Source: Crocinitomicaceae bacterium
GTDB taxonomy: Bacteria > Bacteroidota > Bacteroidia > Flavobacteriales_D > Parvicellaceae
Assembly: GCA_002723085.1 (NCBI GenBank)
Contig: PBNK01000026.1
Coordinates: 8,965-72,964 of the forward strand
Length of the DNA: 64,000 bases
Reading direction: 5' to 3'
The notes beneath the pieces were generated by a model. It worked only from the letters and a program-made list of their open reading frames with translations, did not search any database and had not been told where the DNA came from. Positions 7,652-39,731 of the stretch are shown one piece after another; positions within the stretch are counted from its first letter, which is position 1; each line of letters starts with the position of its first letter. Position numbers and translations under genes: made by a program.

Positions 7652-8272
7652 TTATAAGACATAACCCATAATACACACCAAAGGTAGGATTTCAAGGGTG
7701 CAAAGGTATGAAAATAAATGGAAATATGAAACATTTGAAGCCCTGCCAGAAAAAAAATAGTATGTAGTTCTACAAAGCAATAGAGAAAGAAAGAGTAAAA
7801 TAACCATTTTATTTATTGTAATAGCTTCTTTTTCATAAATTATATTTATTAAAGAAACTGGTAAAAGAAACAGCCCTTGTATAATCACTGTAATGTTGTG
7901 AGAGTTTTGATAACTATTAAATAATGTTCGCTCTTCAAACAGCCGACCAGAAAAAATAATAATAATTTTTTTTGAATAAAATAAACAAGGGGCTAAAACA
8001 CAAAGCGTTGTTTTAGCTATAAATAATTCTGAAGGAAATGAATAAATATAAATGCAATGAATAAAAACTGACAACAAATAAAAGTGTAAAATGTTTTGGT
8101 CTGCTTTAGTATTTTCGAAGTGTTTGAACCTTGTTTTGCTAGTGTGGGATAGCATTATTGTTTTTATTGATTGCGGGGCGGTTCTGCTTATTTTAGCTAA
8201 AACAAAAATGGAAAAAATAAGAGGAATAAATAACCAAAAATTCTCTTGTATCGTTCTTTCAAATAATATCAC
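7652..8272 (-). CDS. Polytopic membrane protein, DUF4271-like
   Basis: The 206-aa product has 5-6 hydrophobic helices. From memory, its position next to the hemD-like gene is conserved in Bacteroidota. It uses a GTG start. Confidence 0.45.
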   Translation of the reverse strand: MILFERTIQENFWLFIPLIFSIFVLAKISRTAPQSIKTIMLSHTSKTRFKHFENTKADQNILHFYLLSVFIHCIYIYSFPSELFIAKTTLCVLAPCLFYSKKIIIIFSGRLFEERTLFNSYQNSHNITVIIQGLFLLPVSLINIIYEKEAITINKMVILLFLSLLLCRTTYYFFSGRASNVSYFHLFSYLCTLEILPLVCIMGYVL

Positions 8273-31803: not shown

Positions 31804-31811
31804 TAATTTTG
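31804..31811 (+). promoter_or_regulatory. -7 box TAATTTTG upstream of queD
   Basis: It matches the consensus exactly, 19 nt from the ATG at 31830. Confidence 0.35.
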
Positions 31812-31829
31812 TTAAAAACCCAAAATGAA

Positions 31830-32267
31830 ATGAACGTTCGAATAACTAAACAGTTTAATTTTGAGGCAGCTCACGCTCTTGATGGATATGAAGGAAAATG
31901 CAAAGATATTCACGGACACAGTTATCACCTAAAAGTTACTTTTTTAGGAAAACCAAAAAACGACAATGAACTTAGCGACTGTGGAATGGTTGTAGACTTT
32001 GGCGAAGTAAAAAAAGTAGTAAAGACCTATATCCTACCTATATTTGACCATCGTCTTATTTTGCGAAAAGATACACGGTTTCAAGAAATTGCCCCTATAA
32101 ATGAACGCATTCGTTTGGTTGATTACCAACCCACATGTGAAAACATGTTAATAGAAATAGTACAGATATTACAAACCAACAAACCTAAAGGAACCAAATT
32201 GGTTAAAGCTTTTTTAAGAGAAACAGCAAATAGTTATGCAGAGTGGTTAGCAGAAGATAACTCATAA
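31830..32267 (+). CDS. queD: 6-carboxy-5,6,7,8-tetrahydropterin synthase
   Basis: Motifs FNFEAAH and CKDIHGHSYHL are present. The ATG at 31830 is preferred because the TTG at 31809 lies inside a -7 promoter box. Confidence 0.85.
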   Translation: MNVRITKQFNFEAAHALDGYEGKCKDIHGHSYHLKVTFLGKPKNDNELSDCGMVVDFGEVKKVVKTYILPIFDHRLILRKDTRFQEIAPINERIRLVDYQPTCENMLIEIVQILQTNKPKGTKLVKAFLRETANSYAEWLAEDNS

Positions 32268-32271
32268 TAAA

Positions 32272-33078
32272 ATGGAAGAAAAAAAACAAAAAGCAAGTTT
32301 ATGGTTTAGAAAACTTAGAGATGAATTTTGTCAAGCATTTGAAAATTTAGACGGAGGAAGCTTTAAACGAAAAAACTGGAAACACAAAGGAAGTGGCGGA
32401 GGAGAAATGAGCATTATGAAGGGTGATGTTTTTGAAAAAGTAGGGGTAAATATTTCAACGGTTTCAGGGCAATTCACAGAAGAATATCGTTCAAAAATTA
32501 AAGGCACAGAAAGTTCACCTAATTATTGGGCATCAGGAATTAGTTTAGTTGCTCACATGAAATCTCCCAAGATACCCGCATTCCATTTTAATACACGGTT
32601 TTTAGTTACTGGAGAATCTTGGTTTGGTGGCGGTGCAGATATGACACCAACATTTGTAAATAAAAAAGACACAAAACTTTTTCATAGTAAAATGGAAGAA
32701 GCGTGTGCTCCTTATAATGAATCTTATTACCCGGATTTTAAAAAAAGATGCGATGAATATTTTTATTTACCCCACCGAAACGAACCAAGAGGAGAAGGGG
32801 GTATTTTTTTTGATTATCTTAACACAGGTGATTGGGAAAAAGACTTCTCTTTTTTAAAATCTGTGGGCCAAAAAACTCTAGAAGCCATTACTGAAATAGT
32901 AAAACAACACAAAGGATTAAACTGGACAAAGGAAGAAAAAGAGCAACAACTTATTAAAAGAGGAAGATATGTTGAGTTTAATTTATTATGGGACAGAGGA
33001 ACCCTTTTTGGAATTAAAACAGGGGGCTCAACAGAGGCTATACTAATGTCTATGCCGCCAACAGTTAAATGGGCTTAA
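32272..33078 (+). CDS. hemF: Oxygen-dependent coproporphyrinogen III oxidase
   Basis: Motifs WFGGGADMTPT, HRNEPRGEGGIFFDY and RGRYVEFNLLWDRGT are present. Confidence 0.85.
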   Translation: MEEKKQKASLWFRKLRDEFCQAFENLDGGSFKRKNWKHKGSGGGEMSIMKGDVFEKVGVNISTVSGQFTEEYRSKIKGTESSPNYWASGISLVAHMKSPKIPAFHFNTRFLVTGESWFGGGADMTPTFVNKKDTKLFHSKMEEACAPYNESYYPDFKKRCDEYFYLPHRNEPRGEGGIFFDYLNTGDWEKDFSFLKSVGQKTLEAITEIVKQHKGLNWTKEEKEQQLIKRGRYVEFNLLWDRGTLFGIKTGGSTEAILMSMPPTVKWA

Positions 33079-33563
33079 TGAATGATTTAGAAAACATAAA
33101 AAATGCTCTTTCAGTTATTCCTGACCCAGAAATTCCGGTGTTAACAATTAAGGAATTGGGCGTTTTAAGGCAAGTCAAAAAAGAGGCGGACACAATAATA
33201 ATCACCATTACTCCAACATATTCTGGTTGCCCAGCAATGGATCGTTTTCAAACGGATATAAAAAAAGAAATGGCAACACTAAATGTAAAAAAGTATAAAA
33301 TCATTACCCAATATGACCCCGCGTGGACAACGGATTGGTTAAGCTTAGCAGCAAAGAAAAAGTTAAAAAAATACGGAATTGCCCCACCAGAACACAAAAC
33401 AACAGACAAAAACGCAATTCTTGGAGCGCCAAAAAAAGTAACTTGCCCTAGGTGTGACTCTAAAGAAACAAATCTTGTTAGTCCTTTTAGCTCAACAGCA
33501 TGTAAGGCCATGTACGCTTGTAAAGAGTGTTACGAGCCTTTTGAGTATTTTAAATGTTTATAG
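33069..33563 (+). CDS. paaD: PaaD-like protein (DUF59 Fe-S-assembly-type domain plus C-terminal zinc ribbon; 1,2-phenylacetyl-CoA epoxidase subunit D family)
   Basis: Motifs IPDPEIPVLTI, TPTYSGCPAM, DPAWTTDW, YGIAPP and CPRC...STACKAMYACKECYEPFEYFKC are present. An alternative ATG lies at 33078. Confidence 0.75.
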   Translation: MGLMNDLENIKNALSVIPDPEIPVLTIKELGVLRQVKKEADTIIITITPTYSGCPAMDRFQTDIKKEMATLNVKKYKIITQYDPAWTTDWLSLAAKKKLKKYGIAPPEHKTTDKNAILGAPKKVTCPRCDSKETNLVSPFSSTACKAMYACKECYEPFEYFKCL

Positions 33564-34730: not shown

Positions 34731-36152
34731 CTAATCATGTGTTGTCAACTTTTTAATCATCCCTTGAAAAATAAAACTATGAAAGGGTAAAACTGAAAAC
34801 CAATACAATCTACCCAAAAGGCCAAGAGGTCTAAAAGTAGCTTTTTGATAAAGTTTGCCGTTTTTTATTTTAAATTCTAACCAAGCCTCTCCAGGAAGTT
34901 TCATCTCAGCAAATAAAAGAAGGCGCCCCTCTTCTTTGTTTGCATAAAGAACTCTCCAGAAGTCCAAAGCGTCTCCTGGATTAATTGAGTTATTGTTTGT
35001 TCTTCCTCTTCTAATTCCAACGCCACCAGAAAGCTTGTCTAAAAATCCTCTTATTGTCCATAGCCAGTTTCCGTAATACCAGCCATTTTCACCACCAATC
35101 GACCAAATTTTTTCAATACAGAGCGTTTTATTACTATATTTTTTTTCTCTAGAATCAATAAGGCAACCATATGAAGGAACTTCAATAAAGTCTGAAATAT
35201 TGATGTTCATTCCGCTGCTTACGTAAGCATCTTTCCAACTGGAAATTATCTCGTTATTCCTTATTTTACTAAAAGCTTTTTCAAGAGATTTTTTATAACT
35301 TAAAGGAGAAATACCTAATATTTCCTGAAGTTTTTTATCTCTACAGATAACTTCAATTTTCATGCTGTTAACTAGAGCGACTGCAAGTTTATAAGATGTT
35401 GAGGTTACAAAATACAACCAGTAAGAAGAAAGACGAGGAGTCATAACAGGAACGATTATAATTCTTCGTTTAAGGTTTCGTGTTTCAGCAAAACCTAATA
35501 GCATTTCTTTATATGATAATACATTTGGACCGCCAATGTCAAAGCTTTCGTTAAAAGTTTTGGAGTTGAATAGGGTTTTATTCAAAAAAAGTATGACATC
35601 TGAAACTCCGATAGGTTGACACTTTGTGTTTAACCATTTTGGAGTAATCATTACAGGGAGTTTCTCAACAATGTCTCTAATAATTTCAAAAGAAGCACTA
35701 CCAGAACCAATAATTATTCCCGCTCTTAGTGTAGTGCAATTATAGGTTCCTTTTCTTAGTTCTAGTTCCACATTTTTCCTTGAACCTAAATGTTTAGAAA
35801 GCTCATCATTATTGATTATTCCGCTCAAATAAACAACATGTTTAGCTTTTGTTTGATTTAGTTTTTTTCTAAAATTAATTGCTGATTCTAGTTCGAGTTT
35901 TTCGTAGTTTGACGAAGTAGACATAGAATGAACTAAGTAAAAAGCCCCATCAATGTCTAAAGGGATATTATTAAGGGTTTCAGACTTTAGTAAATCAAGC
36001 TCAATAATTGTAATATTATTTTTAATGGAATCAGGCGGATGAAAACGACTTTTATCTCTAACACAACAAATAACTTCATGTCCCGCATCCACTAGAACAG
36101 GCAAAAGCCGTTTACCGATATATCCTGTTGCTCCAGTTAGTAAAACTTTCAT
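34731..36152 (-). CDS. NAD(P)-binding SDR-family domain fused to a DUF2867-like C-terminal domain
   Basis: It has the Rossmann start VLLTGATGYIGKRL and a C-terminal region with the GENGWYY...WRV pattern typical of DUF2867. Confidence 0.75.
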   Translation of the reverse strand: MKVLLTGATGYIGKRLLPVLVDAGHEVICCVRDKSRFHPPDSIKNNITIIELDLLKSETLNNIPLDIDGAFYLVHSMSTSSNYEKLELESAINFRKKLNQTKAKHVVYLSGIINNDELSKHLGSRKNVELELRKGTYNCTTLRAGIIIGSGSASFEIIRDIVEKLPVMITPKWLNTKCQPIGVSDVILFLNKTLFNSKTFNESFDIGGPNVLSYKEMLLGFAETRNLKRRIIIVPVMTPRLSSYWLYFVTSTSYKLAVALVNSMKIEVICRDKKLQEILGISPLSYKKSLEKAFSKIRNNEIISSWKDAYVSSGMNINISDFIEVPSYGCLIDSREKKYSNKTLCIEKIWSIGGENGWYYGNWLWTIRGFLDKLSGGVGIRRGRTNNNSINPGDALDFWRVLYANKEEGRLLLFAEMKLPGEAWLEFKIKNGKLYQKATFRPLGLLGRLYWFSVLPFHSFIFQGMIKKLTTHD

Positions 36153-36160
36153 TTTTTAGT

Positions 36161-36793
36161 TTAAAAATCAGGAATGTTATTGTTTCTAACATAAGGAAAA
36201 GAATTTATTTTTCCCACCTTATAATAAGTGTTTAATCCAGAAATTCCCGCACAGGAGTATTTTTCTAAATCAAGTTGCCCAAGCTCATTAATAGAATGCT
36301 CAGGATAAATAACTTTTTTAACATTTCCTATAACCATTGAACAACCATTTGGCAACGGAACACTTTCTAGATGTTTTAATCCTATTTTTACTTTACTTTC
36401 CTTTACAAATGGAGCATAAAAGTCATCAATAAATTCTTTTTCTATTTTCATTCTATCAAATTCAGATTCGTCTGAAGTTAATTTTGCTGAGGTATAATGT
36501 GCTTTTTTAATGAAAGAATCAGAAACATGGTTTATAGTGTAAAAATTTGTTTGAAGAATATTTTTATATGTGTCTCTCGGGTTATTGGTTTGAGGGCGAA
36601 GAATGAATCCAAATTGAGCAGGATTTGACCCAAGATGAACAACAGATGAGAAAATAGCTAAATTATCAAACCCATCTTTCGACCTAGTGCCAATTAAGTT
36701 TGCCGGTTTAATTCCAGATAGAGAATTAATTAAGTTTAGTCTATATTTTCGATCTAAATTATCAATATCTGTAATGTTAAGTTTCATTTTCAT
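36161..36793 (-). CDS. Flavin reductase-like (FMN-binding split-barrel) protein
   Basis: The segment LINSLSGIKPANLIGT...NLAIFSSVVHLGSNP...ILRP resembles Bacteroidota flavin reductase family proteins. Its start overlaps the upstream gene by 17 nt. Confidence 0.65.
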   Translation of the reverse strand: MKMKLNITDIDNLDRKYRLNLINSLSGIKPANLIGTRSKDGFDNLAIFSSVVHLGSNPAQFGFILRPQTNNPRDTYKNILQTNFYTINHVSDSFIKKAHYTSAKLTSDESEFDRMKIEKEFIDDFYAPFVKESKVKIGLKHLESVPLPNGCSMVIGNVKKVIYPEHSINELGQLDLEKYSCAGISGLNTYYKVGKINSFPYVRNNNIPDF

Positions 36794-37784
36794 TGATTTT
36801 AGCTTTTAATTCTTTTTTACATTTTTTCCAAAAGGAAAAAAAAGAAGGATAATATCCTTTTTGTTCACAAATCCAATCTCTATTTTCTTCATTTCCTTTA
36901 TAATGCTTGTTTGTTGGATGCTCTTTGTAAAATAAGTTTTCAAAACTTATTATTTGGGCTAACTCTTGAAACTCACCTACAAAAAGCTTAATGTTTTTTA
37001 AATTGACTGAAAGGCTAATCGCAAAATCTAAGCAATTTTGATTAATTGGAAATTTTTCAAAAAAAGAAGGCTCAAGCAATAAAACCTTTTGAAAACCCTC
37101 ATTTTTATGCCAGTCAGGATCTAAATTATAATAATTAAACACTAAGGTTTTAATGTTCCGTATTTCAGGATCATTTAAACTTGGAAGAATACAATTTGTT
37201 TTTAAATCAGAAACAGGTTTGAGAATATTTGGGGTTGCCATTGAATAAAAATCAGGATATTCCACATCTAAAAAAGTTCCTTTTTGTCCACTGTTGAAAT
37301 ATTTATTAATGTTAGATTGATTTGCGTAGTATTTCTTATTGCTAAATGTACCCGAAACCCATTGCCAACTAAGGTGATTGCTTGCTATATCACCATCATA
37401 TAAGTTGCTATATAACCATTTTGCAGGGGTTAACCAGTGACATTTTGCTACGTTACAACAAACTGAAGCCACATACATTCTCATGTGGTTATGCATATAA
37501 CCAGTTGAATATAAAACTTTAATAGCTTCATCTACGGCATTTATTTTTGTTTCAGCATTTATAATTGCATCAGGAATTTTATGATTTTCTATATTTTGTT
37601 GAGGGTTCTTAAGATCTGTAAAAATTTGATTTTTTTTATTTACCCAAATCAACTGCCAATAATCTCTCCACGCAAGTTCTTGAATGATTTTTTCTATTTT
37701 ACACCAATCAATATTTAGAGATAATATATAATTTACAATTTGTTTTGTTGAAATCACACCTCTGGAAATATATGGACTTAACAT
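36777..37784 (-). CDS. Photolyase/cryptochrome-family protein with inverted topology (N-terminal FAD/catalytic domain, no N-terminal antenna domain; NewPHL-like)
   Basis: It begins directly with LSPYISRG, followed by ELAWRDYW, GYMHNHMRMYVAS and DGDIASNHLSWQWVSG, which are FAD_binding_7 hallmarks. About 150 extra residues follow at the C-terminus. Confidence 0.7.
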   Translation of the reverse strand: MLSPYISRGVISTKQIVNYILSLNIDWCKIEKIIQELAWRDYWQLIWVNKKNQIFTDLKNPQQNIENHKIPDAIINAETKINAVDEAIKVLYSTGYMHNHMRMYVASVCCNVAKCHWLTPAKWLYSNLYDGDIASNHLSWQWVSGTFSNKKYYANQSNINKYFNSGQKGTFLDVEYPDFYSMATPNILKPVSDLKTNCILPSLNDPEIRNIKTLVFNYYNLDPDWHKNEGFQKVLLLEPSFFEKFPINQNCLDFAISLSVNLKNIKLFVGEFQELAQIISFENLFYKEHPTNKHYKGNEENRDWICEQKGYYPSFFSFWKKCKKELKAKINENET

Positions 37785-37882
37785 AGTGACAGCACCATTT
37801 TTATAATTTCTTGTTGCGGCATACTTTGAAGGATTAATTTTTTTAATCCGTAATAAAATTTGTTCTATTTCAGAAGGAAAAT

Positions 37883-38152
37883 CTATCGCTTAGAAATTTT
37901 ATTGTTGGAGATACTCTTTTGTCTAGAACATTTGAATCTTTTTATTTCAGAGCTTCTTTTTTTTAGATGTTTTTTACTGACACCGCTATTAACTCTTTTT
38001 CTCCAAAGTTTAAATGACTTTTCTTTTAACTCTTTTCTCATGAGAGAAATTACATCTTTTTCGGTGTAACCAAACTGAAATCGAATGGCCTCAAAAGGTG
38101 TGCGATCTTCCCAAGCCATTTCAATAATTCTATCAATGGAACTATAATTCAT
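37883..38152 (-). CDS. TIGR03643 (DUF2805) family small protein, a family typically linked to photolyase genes
   Basis: The 89-aa product contains DRIIEMAWEDRTPFEAIRFQFG..EKDVI.LMR.ELK..SFKLWRKRV, the family core as I recall it. Confidence 0.75.
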   Translation of the reverse strand: MNYSSIDRIIEMAWEDRTPFEAIRFQFGYTEKDVISLMRKELKEKSFKLWRKRVNSGVSKKHLKKRSSEIKRFKCSRQKSISNNKISKR

Positions 38153-39254: not shown

Positions 39255-39731
39255 TTAATAAGAATACTTAACAGCATGCCATATCGCAACAAATTCTTCA
39301 ATAGTCACATAACCATCAATTGTAAACTGAATATCACTAGAATAGCTGGAATTTCCAGTGTATACCTTTCCACTTTTTATTGTTGCTATAACATCACTGC
39401 TATAAGACGAAGTTCCCTTGTATATTTTGCTGTCTTTTATGGTCATTACAATATCACTACTATAAGATGAAGTTCCTTTGTACACTTTTCCATCTGAAAT
39501 ATTATAAAGTACATCACTCGAATAAGAGCTCGTGCCTTTATAAACTTTTTTGCCACTTACCTTGCAAATTACATCTGATGAATAACTAGATGTTTTTTTA
39601 TATACTTTATCGTTATTTAGATTACAAATTACATCACTCGAATATGTACTTGTGCCTTTATAAACCTTAGTCTGTGCATTAGCAAAACTCACGGAAATTG
39701 TCAATATTGCTATTAAAATAATCTGTTTCAT
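39255..39731 (-). CDS. Exported tandem-repeat protein (six 20-aa K[VI]YKGTSSYSSD[VI] repeats)
   Basis: A signal peptide (SFANAQ) is followed by 6 consecutive 20-aa repeats and a unique 17-aa tail. The repeats differ at synonymous sites, which supports a real, selected coding frame. Confidence 0.7.
   Translation of the reverse strand: MKQIILIAILTISVSFANAQTKVYKGTSTYSSDVICNLNNDKVYKKTSSYSSDVICKVSGKKVYKGTSSYSSDVLYNISDGKVYKGTSSYSSDIVMTIKDSKIYKGTSSYSSDVIATIKSGKVYTGNSSYSSDIQFTIDGYVTIEEFVAIWHAVKYSY
39309..39668 (-). repeat. Six tandem 60-nt (20-codon) coding repeats
   Basis: The units are KVYKGTSTYSSDVICNLNND / KVYKKTSSYSSDVICKVSGK / KVYKGTSSYSSDVLYNISDG / KVYKGTSSYSSDIVMTIKDS / KIYKGTSSYSSDVIATIKSG / KVYTGNSSYSSDIQFTIDGY. 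Ser codons switch between AGY and TCN among units. Confidence 0.85.

What the first reader, a model, noticed from the sequence alone, without database searches (positions are those of the whole stretch)
36777..37784. Photolyase-family protein with inverted domain order and no antenna-binding N-terminal domain
The 335-aa product begins at residue 2 with LSPYISRG. In canonical photolyases and cryptochromes that motif opens the C-terminal FAD-binding domain about 200 residues into the protein. The other catalytic-domain hallmarks follow in order: ELAWRDYW, GYMHNHMRMYVAS, DGDIASNHLSWQWVSG. Only 98 nt separate this gene from the next upstream gene, so no N-terminal alpha/beta domain can be encoded upstream. 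Instead, about 150 extra residues follow the catalytic domain (roughly 36777-37250). By eye, part of that tail (KVLLLEPSFFEKF...FAISLSVNLKNIKLFVGEF) loosely recalls the photolyase alpha/beta domain. From memory, this fits the NewPHL class described around 2020: N-terminal catalytic domain, C-terminal capping domain, CPD repair on single-stranded DNA. That class is rarely annotated and little studied in Bacteroidota.
Basis: partly seen in the sequence, partly recalled or inferred. Interest (0 to 1): 0.7.

Follow-up and report, generated by a model that had tools for sequence, protein, structure and literature searches.

The report
Short antenna-less photolyase, non-ATG start

Summary
The ORF 36777-37784 (-) and the quoted motifs are real. 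The architecture is as described: a photolyase catalytic domain first, then a ~150-aa C-terminal domain, with no antenna domain. The protein belongs to the published NewPHL class, also called SPL. Specifically it falls in the Bacteroidetes subgroup "Ba", being 61 % identical to the Cyclobacterium marinum orthologue. All CPD-photolyase active-site residues are present, and it has a Trp dyad instead of a triad.

The protein does not begin at "MLSPYISRG". The frame is open and under purifying selection for a further 34-35 codons. That stretch holds invariant residues (Y23, R27, N28, G32, T35), and homology to E. coli photolyase starts there. No ATG/GTG/TTG is available. The best start is ATA at 37886-37884, overlapping the TAG stop of the upstream DUF2805 gene ("ATAG"). 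In 27 of 83 related loci the gene likewise has only ATA, ATC or ATT at the family start position.

An AlphaFold model is very confident (pLDDT 95). The C-terminal domain has no significant structural neighbour in the PDB, and no structure of this class is solved.

Verdict: a correct identification and a new member of a known kind. The start-codon pattern and the operon partners are the only potentially new points.

The parts
36777..37886 (-). Proposed full CDS of the SPL/NewPHL-class photolyase (369 aa plus stop), starting at ATA
   Evidence: The open frame extends upstream of the ATG. Homologues cover 97-100 % of the extended protein. The upstream stretch is under purifying selection and carries invariant residues.
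37884..37886 (-). Probable ATA initiation codon, overlapping the TAG stop (37883-37885) of the DUF2805 gene as 'ATAG'
   Evidence: There is no ATG/GTG/TTG between the TAA at 37892-90 and Met36. ATG occupies this same codon in L056, L061, L067 and L084. NCBI annotates an ATA start at the identical junction in C. marinum and an ATC start in Kaistella jeonii. 27 of 83 loci have only ATA, ATC or ATT at this position.
36777..37784 (-). The 335-aa ATG-called ORF of the finding; an N-terminally truncated call
   Evidence: Met36 is not conserved: position 36 is Y, K, R, S or H elsewhere.
37230..37886 (-). All-alpha catalytic FAD-binding domain (residues ~2-220)
   Evidence: PF03441 matches residues 69-205. 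Photolyase models align from residue 5. AF2 predicts helices over 8-216 at pLDDT >90. Foldseek matches ~205 columns of canonical photolyases and cryptochromes.
36780..37229 (-). C-terminal Z-domain region (residues ~221-370): a linker, then a five-stranded alpha/beta unit and a long terminal helix; carries invariant N255, W260, Q267, N296, H324, P325, G332, R337, F350 and the motif G-Y-[YF]-P-S-F-F-x-F-W-K-K
   Evidence: It is homologous to the C-terminal region of distant 400-430-aa relatives (hhalign 93 %, E 3.3e-7). It has no significant PDB neighbour.
37883..38152 (-). DUF2805 / TIGR03643 gene (89 aa, basic C-terminal tail), first gene of the operon; its stop overlaps the photolyase start
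   Evidence: PF10985 E 2.6e-34 and TIGR03643 E 6.5e-33. It lies immediately upstream in 41 of 83 related loci.
36161..36793 (-). Flavin reductase-like gene (210 aa); overlaps the photolyase 3' end by 17 nt
   Evidence: PF01613 E 7.8e-13. PDB 3fge E 7.3e-49. It is adjacent in 18 of 83 related loci.
34731..36152 (-). SDR-type NAD(P)-binding + DUF2867 gene (473 aa), 8 nt downstream; probable last gene of the operon
   Evidence: PF11066 E 1.6e-29 and PF13460. It is found in only 3 of 83 related loci.

Best explanation
The gene encodes a short, antenna-less, FAD-dependent CPD photolyase of the NewPHL/SPL class, Bacteroidetes subgroup Ba.

Inferred mechanism. The N-terminal all-alpha domain binds FAD. 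Blue/near-UV light excites FADH-, which donates an electron to a cyclobutane pyrimidine dimer held by the conserved E71/W74/N134/M138/W177 pocket and splits it. FAD is photoreduced through a two-tryptophan chain (W175 -> W152) rather than the usual triad. The ~150-aa C-terminal Z-domain packs against the catalytic domain and takes the place of the missing antenna domain in shielding the flavin. By analogy with the two characterised subgroup-A enzymes, the substrate is probably single-stranded DNA.

Expression. The protein is 369 aa. It is most likely initiated at ATA 37886-37884, which overlaps the TAG stop of the upstream DUF2805 gene. Translation is therefore weak and/or coupled to DUF2805. 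The gene sits in a tight four-gene operon: DUF2805, photolyase, flavin reductase-like, SDR/DUF2867.

Shown here: architecture, residue conservation, family membership, and the extent of the coding sequence. Inferred: FAD binding, CPD repair, ssDNA preference, and use of ATA as initiator.
For: Residue mapping uses the alignment to E. coli photolyase 1dnp: E71=E274, W74=W277, R75=R278, N134=N341, R137=R344, M138=M345, W152=W359, D165=D372, D167=D374, N171=N378, W175=W382, W177=W384. N99 sits at the W306 position. All of these except E71 (nearly invariant) and the unconserved N99 are invariant in 108 homologues.

The protein is 61 % identical to the C. marinum orthologue. Published statements say that CmSPL represents subgroup Ba and that SPL equals NewPHL.

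The full-length AF2 model has pLDDT 95.2 and pTM 0.92, which implies a confidently packed two-domain protein. The catalytic domain superposes on DASH and class I photolyases.

N-terminus and start codon.
Against: No biochemical data exist for any subgroup-Ba member in the papers I could read. ssDNA specificity is extrapolated from subgroup A, and I could not compare directly with the DsNewPHL or MmNewPHL sequences.

AUA initiates at only about 1-2 % of AUG in E. coli, so initiation at ATA is an inference from comparative data and from NCBI's homology-driven annotation, not a measurement.

The window holds no companion class I or (6-4) photolyase, although NewPHLs usually accompany one somewhere in the genome.
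Confidence: 0.82

Rival explanations
1. The 335-aa ATG-initiated ORF is the true product, and the upstream in-frame stretch is untranslated.
For: ATG at 37784 is the first canonical start in the frame. A gene caller produced the same 335-aa product for the 97 % relative.
Against: Five of 6 upstream substitutions are synonymous. Y23, R27, N28, G32 and T35 are 100 % conserved, including in all 27 loci without a canonical start. Met36 exists only in this lineage. In other such loci the first canonical in-frame codon lies anywhere from residue 15 to 132, which would delete active-site residues. Homology to E. coli photolyase begins at F4-P5.
Confidence: 0.04
2. The photolyase is made as a DUF2805 fusion by programmed -1 ribosomal frameshifting at the gene junction, rather than by initiation at ATA.
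For: The photolyase frame is the -1 frame of DUF2805 and the two genes overlap. Several junctions are A-rich, for example 'CAAAAAGATAG' in L086.
Against: In the window a TAA in the -1 frame (37892-90) leaves only 'GCGATAG' for slippage. By my own reading of the codons, no tRNA re-pairing is plausible there. Eleven of the 27 non-canonical loci have no DUF2805 upstream; the Kaistella gene stands 165 nt from its neighbour with an ATC start. Other lineages have ATG at exactly this codon.
Confidence: 0.04
3. The gene is decaying: it lost its start codon and is a silent or nearly silent pseudogene.
For: There is no canonical start codon, and AUH codons initiate poorly in E. coli.
Against: The reading frame is intact. 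Every catalytic residue is retained and the Z-domain is conserved. The same start arrangement persists across whole clades of Flavobacteriales, Cytophagales and Chitinophagales, with at least 11 state changes on the tree and apparent 'repairs'.
Confidence: 0.03
4. The protein is mainly a flavin-based photoreceptor or regulator (a bacterial cryptochrome) and not a repair enzyme. Xu et al. raise this possibility for SPLs with C-terminal extensions.
For: The protein has a C-terminal extension. It usually sits next to a dedicated (6-4) photolyase gene in relatives. Xu et al. suggest SPLs may retain only residual repair activity or have other functions.
Against: All CPD-contacting residues (E71, W74, N134, M138, W177) are conserved (nearly invariant or invariant), unlike the NewCRY group, which lacks them. 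Characterised members of subgroups A and Ac do repair CPDs.
Confidence: 0.07

Closest known systems
SPL subgroup Ba (representative CmSPL, Cyclobacterium marinum), Xu et al. 2021, PMC8476157
   Same: The length (363 vs 369 aa) and architecture are the same. The two are 61 % identical over 97 % of the length. The DUF2805 upstream neighbour and the ATA/TAG overlapping junction are the same. Neither has the four-cysteine Fe-S motif.
   Different: The downstream partners differ. C. marinum has DUF2256 and an FeS-BCP (6-4) photolyase. The window has a flavin reductase-like gene and an SDR/DUF2867 gene, with no second photolyase within 64 kb.
DsNewPHL (A8LJA9) and MmNewPHL (M7YZC8), Emmerich et al. 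2020, PMC7736829; these are the biochemically characterised subgroup-A members
   Same: Both have the inverted topology: a catalytic domain followed by a ~150-aa Z-domain. The E/N/W/W active site, the Trp dyad, and the absence of an antenna domain and of the inter-domain phosphate-binding loop are shared.
   Different: They belong to a different subgroup. Their Z-domains are longer and divergent, and only profile-level similarity to distant relatives was shown. FAD content and ssDNA-specific CPD repair were shown for them and are not shown here.
Class I CPD photolyase (E. coli PhrB, 1dnp) and DASH cryptochromes (1np7)
   Same: The catalytic-domain fold and residues match: Foldseek rmsd 2.8 A over 205 columns to 1np7, and 23-25 % identity.
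   Different: The N-terminal alpha/beta antenna domain and the inter-domain linker are absent. The third Trp of the triad is missing. A C-terminal Z-domain is added. NCBIfam scores are far below the family cut-offs: 75.5 vs 317 for DASH and 71.9 vs 506 for PRK10674.
E. coli infC and pcnB (AUU-initiated genes)
   Same: A near-cognate AUH codon is used as the initiator, presumably keeping expression low.
   Different: Here the pattern recurs across a third of a whole gene family, mostly as AUA. It often overlaps the stop codon of the upstream gene. Nothing is known about regulation.

Membership tests
NewPHL / SPL class | No N-terminal alpha/beta antenna domain (PF00875 / PF04244) | tested here: met
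   Pfam finds only PF03441. The frame closes 3 codons upstream of the conserved FPS. About 100 closest cluster representatives are 355-390 aa and align from residues ~3-10.
NewPHL / SPL class | [quoted passage not shown] | tested here: met
   PF03441 E 3.3e-22. PDB phmmer hits to 4u63, 1dnp and 1tez have E ~1e-11. Foldseek finds ~205 aligned columns.
NewPHL / SPL class | Conserved CPD substrate and FAD residues (EcCPDI E274, W277, N341, M345, W384; R344, D372, N378) | tested here: met
   E71, W74, N134, M138, W177, R137, D165 and N171 map to these by the alignment. All are invariant across 108 homologues except E71, which is nearly invariant.
NewPHL / SPL class | Trp dyad: only the two inner tryptophans of the triad are present | tested here: met
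   W175 and W152 are present. N99 aligns with EcCPDI W306.
NewPHL / SPL class | C-terminal Z-domain of ~150 aa, ordered and packed on the catalytic domain | tested here: met
   Residues ~221-370 are conserved. AF2 gives pLDDT 95 and pTM 0.92 for the full-length protein. hhalign gives 93 % to the C-terminal region of distant 400-430-aa relatives. Packing is inferred from pTM only, because the coordinates were not inspected.
NewPHL / SPL class | Z-domain hallmark: one conserved Trp and a 'GFF' motif | tested here: inconclusive
   W260 is invariant, W354 is nearly invariant, and there is a motif G345-Y-[YF]-P-S-F350-F351. Without the DsNewPHL and MmNewPHL sequences I could not establish that these are the same positions.
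NewPHL / SPL class | Close sequence relationship to a published member | tested here: met
   The protein is 61 % identical (E 1.8e-150) to the C. marinum protein P0021. That protein's locus (SPL followed by FeS-BCP) matches the operon described for CmSPL.
NewPHL / SPL class | Binds FAD only; light-dependent CPD repair restricted to ssDNA | not testable with these tools
   This needs protein expression, spectroscopy and repair assays.
NewPHL / SPL class | Accompanies a class I or (6-4) photolyase in the genome; rarely co-occurs with DASH | not testable with these tools
   Only 64 kb of the genome is available, and it holds no second photolyase. In relatives an FeS-BCP gene lies within 2.5 kb downstream in 51 of 83 loci.
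SPL subgroup Ba (as opposed to subgroups C and Ac) | Lacks the four conserved cysteines of the Fe-S cluster | tested here: met
   By position relative to R137 and D165 (RfSPL C155, C239, C242, C248), the window protein has V118, Q202, T205 and Y211 (sequence). This is an ungapped extrapolation and so approximate.
Canonical class I CPD photolyase / DASH cryptochrome | Two-domain architecture with an N-terminal antenna domain; score above the family cut-off | tested here: not met
   There is no PF00875 match. TIGR02765 scores 75.5 against a cut-off of 317, and PRK10674 scores 71.9 against 506.

The most novel reading that the evidence does not exclude
In Bacteroidota this photolyase family may have been selected for initiation at AUA, AUC or AUU. 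In about half of these loci the start overlaps the DUF2805 stop codon ('ATAG' or 'ATAA'), which would suggest termination-reinitiation.

On that reading, the enzyme would be made only when, and in proportion as, DUF2805 is translated. DUF2805 is a small protein with a basic tail. It would then be an obligate partner, for example a DNA-binding subunit that replaces the missing phosphate-binding loop.

In the window's operon variant, the overlapping flavin reductase-like gene would keep the FAD reduced in the dark. That would compensate for the weak Trp-dyad photoreduction.
Probability: 0.2. Interest if true: 0.6.

Novelty: new member of a known kind. Interest (0 to 1): 0.36.

Why it matters
The class is of evolutionary interest. 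Both papers that describe it argue that it may be close to the ancestor of all photolyases and cryptochromes. No structure of the class is in the PDB copy searched, and no Bacteroidota member has been characterised.

This window adds no new kind of protein. It does show three practical things.

1. ATG-based gene calling truncates these genes by ~34 residues, and those residues include invariant ones. Anyone expressing the 335-aa ORF would probably get a defective protein.
2. A third of the family lacks a canonical start codon. That gives a natural, comparative test case for near-cognate or coupled initiation in Bacteroidota.
3. The conserved DUF2805 partner and the occasional flavin-reductase partner are testable leads for how a minimal photolyase binds DNA and keeps its flavin reduced.

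Tried and rejected
1. The supplement of the NewPHL paper is not held as text. I therefore could not obtain the DsNewPHL and MmNewPHL sequences for a direct alignment or to locate the 'GFF' motif.

2. A cluster look-up of ten distant 400-430-aa relatives gave no organism names, so I could not assign them to subgroups A or Be.

3. Z-domain versus antenna domain. Foldseek of the isolated Z-domain model found nothing significant: best E 0.086, TM <= 0.44. The weak hits were Rossmann-like phosphopantetheine adenylyltransferases, cytidylyltransferases and methyltransferases, and no photolyase N-domain appeared in the 50 rows listed. hhalign against FeS-BCP and PF00875-type N-domains gave 0.7-0.8 % probability. 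My control between those two N-domains also failed at 0.2 %, so the test has no power and the question stays open.

4. The sigma-70 promoter and terminator scan of the operon gave counts near shuffle expectation, and these models do not suit Bacteroidota anyway.

5. An Rfam scan of the whole window gave no hits.

6. DUF2805 has no significant solved relative (E 0.61). Literature searches on DUF2805 returned only a metagenome-correlation paper with no functional information.

7. I considered a -1 frameshift fusion, a pseudogene, and the Met36 start, and rejected them (see rivals).
Full report
OBSERVATION. Pfam finds a single domain, PF03441 (FAD-binding domain of DNA photolyase, E 3.3e-22), and no PF00875 antenna domain. 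About 150 residues follow the catalytic domain.

THE N-TERMINUS IS MISCALLED. The reading frame stays open upstream of the ATG, as far as a TAA at 37892-37890. I call the translation of 36780-37889 the 'extended protein' (370 codons, AIDFPSEIEQ...), and all residue numbers below refer to it. Subtract 35 to get the numbering of the 335-aa ORF. Several results show that the upstream stretch is coding.
- NCBIfam's E. coli-type photolyase model aligns from residue 5 to its own position 202. The DASH model aligns from residue 19.
- 6120 database homologues were found. The best 120 are mostly 360-376 aa and cover 97-100 % of the extended protein. They begin 'M-x-FPT', in register with window 'AIDFPS'.
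- Against a 97 %-identical metagenomic relative (L001), the 105 nt upstream of the ATG differ at six positions. Five are synonymous in this frame and one is Tyr->Phe.
- Y23, R27, N28 and G32 are invariant and T35 nearly so in 108 homologues.
- Met36 is peculiar to the window lineage. Elsewhere position 36 is Y, K, R, S or H.
From my own memory of the E. coli photolyase structure, the matching E. coli residues (Y222, T234/S235) are FAD ligands, so a 335-aa product would probably be defective. That last point is recalled and was not tested.

THE START CODON. There is no ATG, GTG or TTG between the upstream stop and Met36. At the codon where homologues have their initiator, two codons before the conserved Phe, the window has ATA (37886-37884). 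This overlaps the TAG stop of the upstream DUF2805 gene (37885-37883), giving 'ATAG'. I examined 83 non-redundant loci: the window, 79 species-representative genome loci and three loci fetched by protein identity.
- 27 loci (33 %) have no canonical start upstream of the conserved N-terminus. In all 27 this codon is ATA (22), ATC (4) or ATT (1).
- Other lineages have ATG at exactly this codon, overlapping a TGA stop ('CGATGA': L056, L061, L067, L084). A single G->A change turns ATGA into ATAA, converting the stop TGA to TAA and the start ATG to ATA at once. This step is my inference.
- In the 27 loci the five N-terminal residues named above are 100 % conserved. The first canonical in-frame codon downstream lies anywhere from residue 15 to residue 132, so no downstream start can be the rule.
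- Eleven of the 27 have no DUF2805 gene upstream.
- NCBI's annotation already starts the Cyclobacterium marinum orthologue at this ATA and the Kaistella jeonii orthologue at a free-standing ATC.
- On a neighbour-joining tree the trait needs at least 11 changes, against a mean of 23 and a minimum of 16 for shuffled states. It is therefore inherited through clades but also gained and lost repeatedly. Some lineages show a canonical codon directly after the overlapping stop (L072 'ATAATG', L068 'ATAGTG').
- For scale, ATG, GTG and TTG make up 81.8 %, 13.8 % and 4.35 % of annotated starts in well-annotated genomes, and AUA/AUC/AUU initiate at about 1-2 % of AUG in E. coli (10.1101/063800).
I conclude that the CDS is most likely 36777..37886 (369 aa), initiated at ATA. 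Initiation may be direct or by reinitiation after DUF2805 termination. This is inference from comparative data and not a measurement.

WHAT THE PROTEIN IS. I mapped residues through the phmmer alignment to E. coli photolyase 1dnp.
- Substrate pocket: E71=E274, W74=W277, N134=N341, M138=M345, W177=W384.
- FAD site: R75=R278, R137=R344, D165=D372, D167=D374, N171=N378.
- Electron-transfer chain: W175=W382 and W152=W359 are present, but N99 stands where W306 would be. This gives a Trp dyad.
Position 341 is Asn and position 345 is Met, as in CPD photolyases. From memory, (6-4) photolyases have His at both positions. All mapped residues except E71 (nearly invariant) and N99 are invariant in the family.
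The exhaustive search of 1.84 billion cluster representatives found 180 with E < 1e-30. The best ~100 are 355-390 aa and align from their first ten residues. More distant ones of 400-445 aa align only over the catalytic domain, again from near their N-terminus. Relatives therefore do not carry an antenna domain.

STRUCTURE. AlphaFold2 with a 108-sequence alignment gives mean pLDDT 95.2 and pTM 0.92. Residues 8-216 are all-alpha. After a linker comes an alpha/beta unit (strands 248-251, 267-272, 301-304, 319-322, 333-335 with intervening helices) and a long terminal helix 350-369. Foldseek against the PDB (entries to April 2026) matches only ~205 columns of canonical photolyases and cryptochromes. 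The best hit is Synechocystis DASH cryptochrome 1np7 at rmsd 2.8 A, and TM normalised to the query is never above 0.46. No structure with this whole architecture is solved.
The Z-domain modelled alone (pLDDT 89.4) has no significant PDB neighbour: best E 0.086 and TM <= 0.44. The weak hits are Rossmann-like nucleotide-binding folds such as phosphopantetheine adenylyltransferase.
Profile-profile comparison shows that the Z-domain is homologous to the C-terminal region of the distant 400-430-aa relatives (93 %, E 3.3e-7, 95 columns). They share a 'P-x-S...F' helix and a terminal 'SF[FS]x[FY]W' motif.
The comparison with antenna domains was uninformative because the control failed. The NewPHL authors make a similar suggestion from contact maps.

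COMPARISON WITH WHAT IS KNOWN. Emmerich et al. 2020 (PMC7736829) defined NewPHL by these features: no antenna domain, an N-terminal catalytic domain, a ~150-aa C-terminal Z-domain, a conserved CPD active site, a Trp dyad, FAD as the only chromophore, and CPD repair on ssDNA only. Xu et al. 2021 (PMC8476157) described the same class independently as 'short photolyase-like' (SPL) and state that the two are identical. They split it into five subgroups. Subgroup 'Ba' is mainly Bacteroidetes (20 of 24 members), with C. marinum SPL as its representative, and subgroups A, Ba and Be lack the four-cysteine Fe-S motif.
The window protein is 61 % identical to the C. marinum protein. That protein's locus (DUF2805, SPL, DUF2256, FeS-BCP) matches the operon the paper mentions. 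The window protein is therefore a member of a published class and subgroup. The characterised enzymes belong to subgroups A and Ac. In the papers I could read, no Ba member has been studied biochemically.

CONTEXT. Four genes on the minus strand are packed tightly:
- DUF2805/TIGR03643 (38152-37883);
- the photolyase (37886-36777);
- a flavin reductase-like gene (36793-36161, 17-nt overlap; PDB 3fge E 7e-49);
- an SDR + DUF2867 gene (36152-34731, 8-nt gap).
Across the 83 loci, DUF2805 lies immediately upstream in 41, an FeS-BCP (6-4) photolyase lies within 2.5 kb downstream in 51, the flavin reductase is adjacent in 18, and SDR/DUF2867 is present in 3. The window has no second photolyase-family gene detectable by tblastn in 64 kb (Pfam on 20 other ORFs). 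No Rfam element is present. The DNA is ~30 % G+C. The nearest species-representative genome is an uncultured Flavobacteriales MAG at 67 % identity.

VERDICT. It is a new member of a known kind and not a novelty. The report adds three things:
- a corrected gene model (369 aa, ATA start, overlap with DUF2805);
- the finding that near-cognate AUH starts recur in a third of this family;
- a confident structural model showing an ordered Z-domain with no significant structural neighbour in the PDB.
Function (FAD binding, CPD repair, ssDNA preference) is inferred from residue conservation and from characterised members of other subgroups.

Noticed in passing
window 37883-37886; loci L005, L012, L014, L018, L026, L027, L032-L034, L040, L053, L060, L064, L075, L086 (junction at ~8001-8007 in most): The DUF2805 stop and the photolyase start overlap as ATAG or ATAA in 16 loci and as ATGA in 4. 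A single G->A change would convert the ATG/TGA pair into ATA/TAA. This suggests translational coupling between the two genes that tolerates a non-AUG start.
   Followed up: partly
L085 4001-4003 (Kaistella jeonii); L020, L025, L035: In the Kaistella/Chryseobacterium orthologues the gene has a free-standing ATC start with no upstream gene overlap. In L085 the upstream intergenic region is 165 nt. NCBI annotates the ATC as initiator.
   Followed up: partly
L072, L041, L068, L055, L048 (codon -1 relative to the conserved Phe): Some lineages carry ATG or GTG directly after the overlapping TAA/TAG stop, for example 'GCGATAATG' and 'GCGATAGTG'. This looks like secondary restoration of a canonical start.
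   Followed up: no
window 36161-36793 (-): A flavin reductase-like gene (PF01613; PDB 3fge E 7e-49) overlaps the photolyase 3' end by 17 nt. It is adjacent to the photolyase in 18 of 83 related loci. It could act as a dark reductant for a photolyase with a weak Trp dyad. Neither paper on the class that I consulted turned up this association.
   Followed up: partly
L047, L049, L050, L059, L062 (ORFs at about 9053-10553 in L047 and L050): In one clade of Flavobacteriales/Cryomorphaceae MAGs the short photolyase is followed by a canonical two-domain photolyase-like gene (starts MNIVWLKRDLRLQDH...). A further photolyase-like hit, probably the FeS-BCP gene, lies beyond it, so these loci may carry three photolyase-family genes in a row.
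   Followed up: no
L006, L030, L038, L048, L058, L081, L082: Close homologues (52-61 % identity) occur in bins labelled Chlorobiota, Verrucomicrobia, Gammaproteobacteria and Rhodobacteraceae. This could reflect horizontal transfer or mis-binning of Bacteroidota contigs.
   Followed up: no
window 39255-39731 (-): A 158-aa secreted protein consists of six near-identical ~20-aa repeats (KVYKGTSSYSSDV...). It matches Pfam Bflower_3, the '6-fold beta flower protein' (E 1.9e-38).
   Followed up: no
window 31809-33563 (+): Genes for 6-pyruvoyl-tetrahydropterin synthase, coproporphyrinogen III oxidase and an Fe-S assembly/PaaD-like protein lie just beyond the operon on the opposite strand. No link to the photolyase was established.
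   Followed up: no
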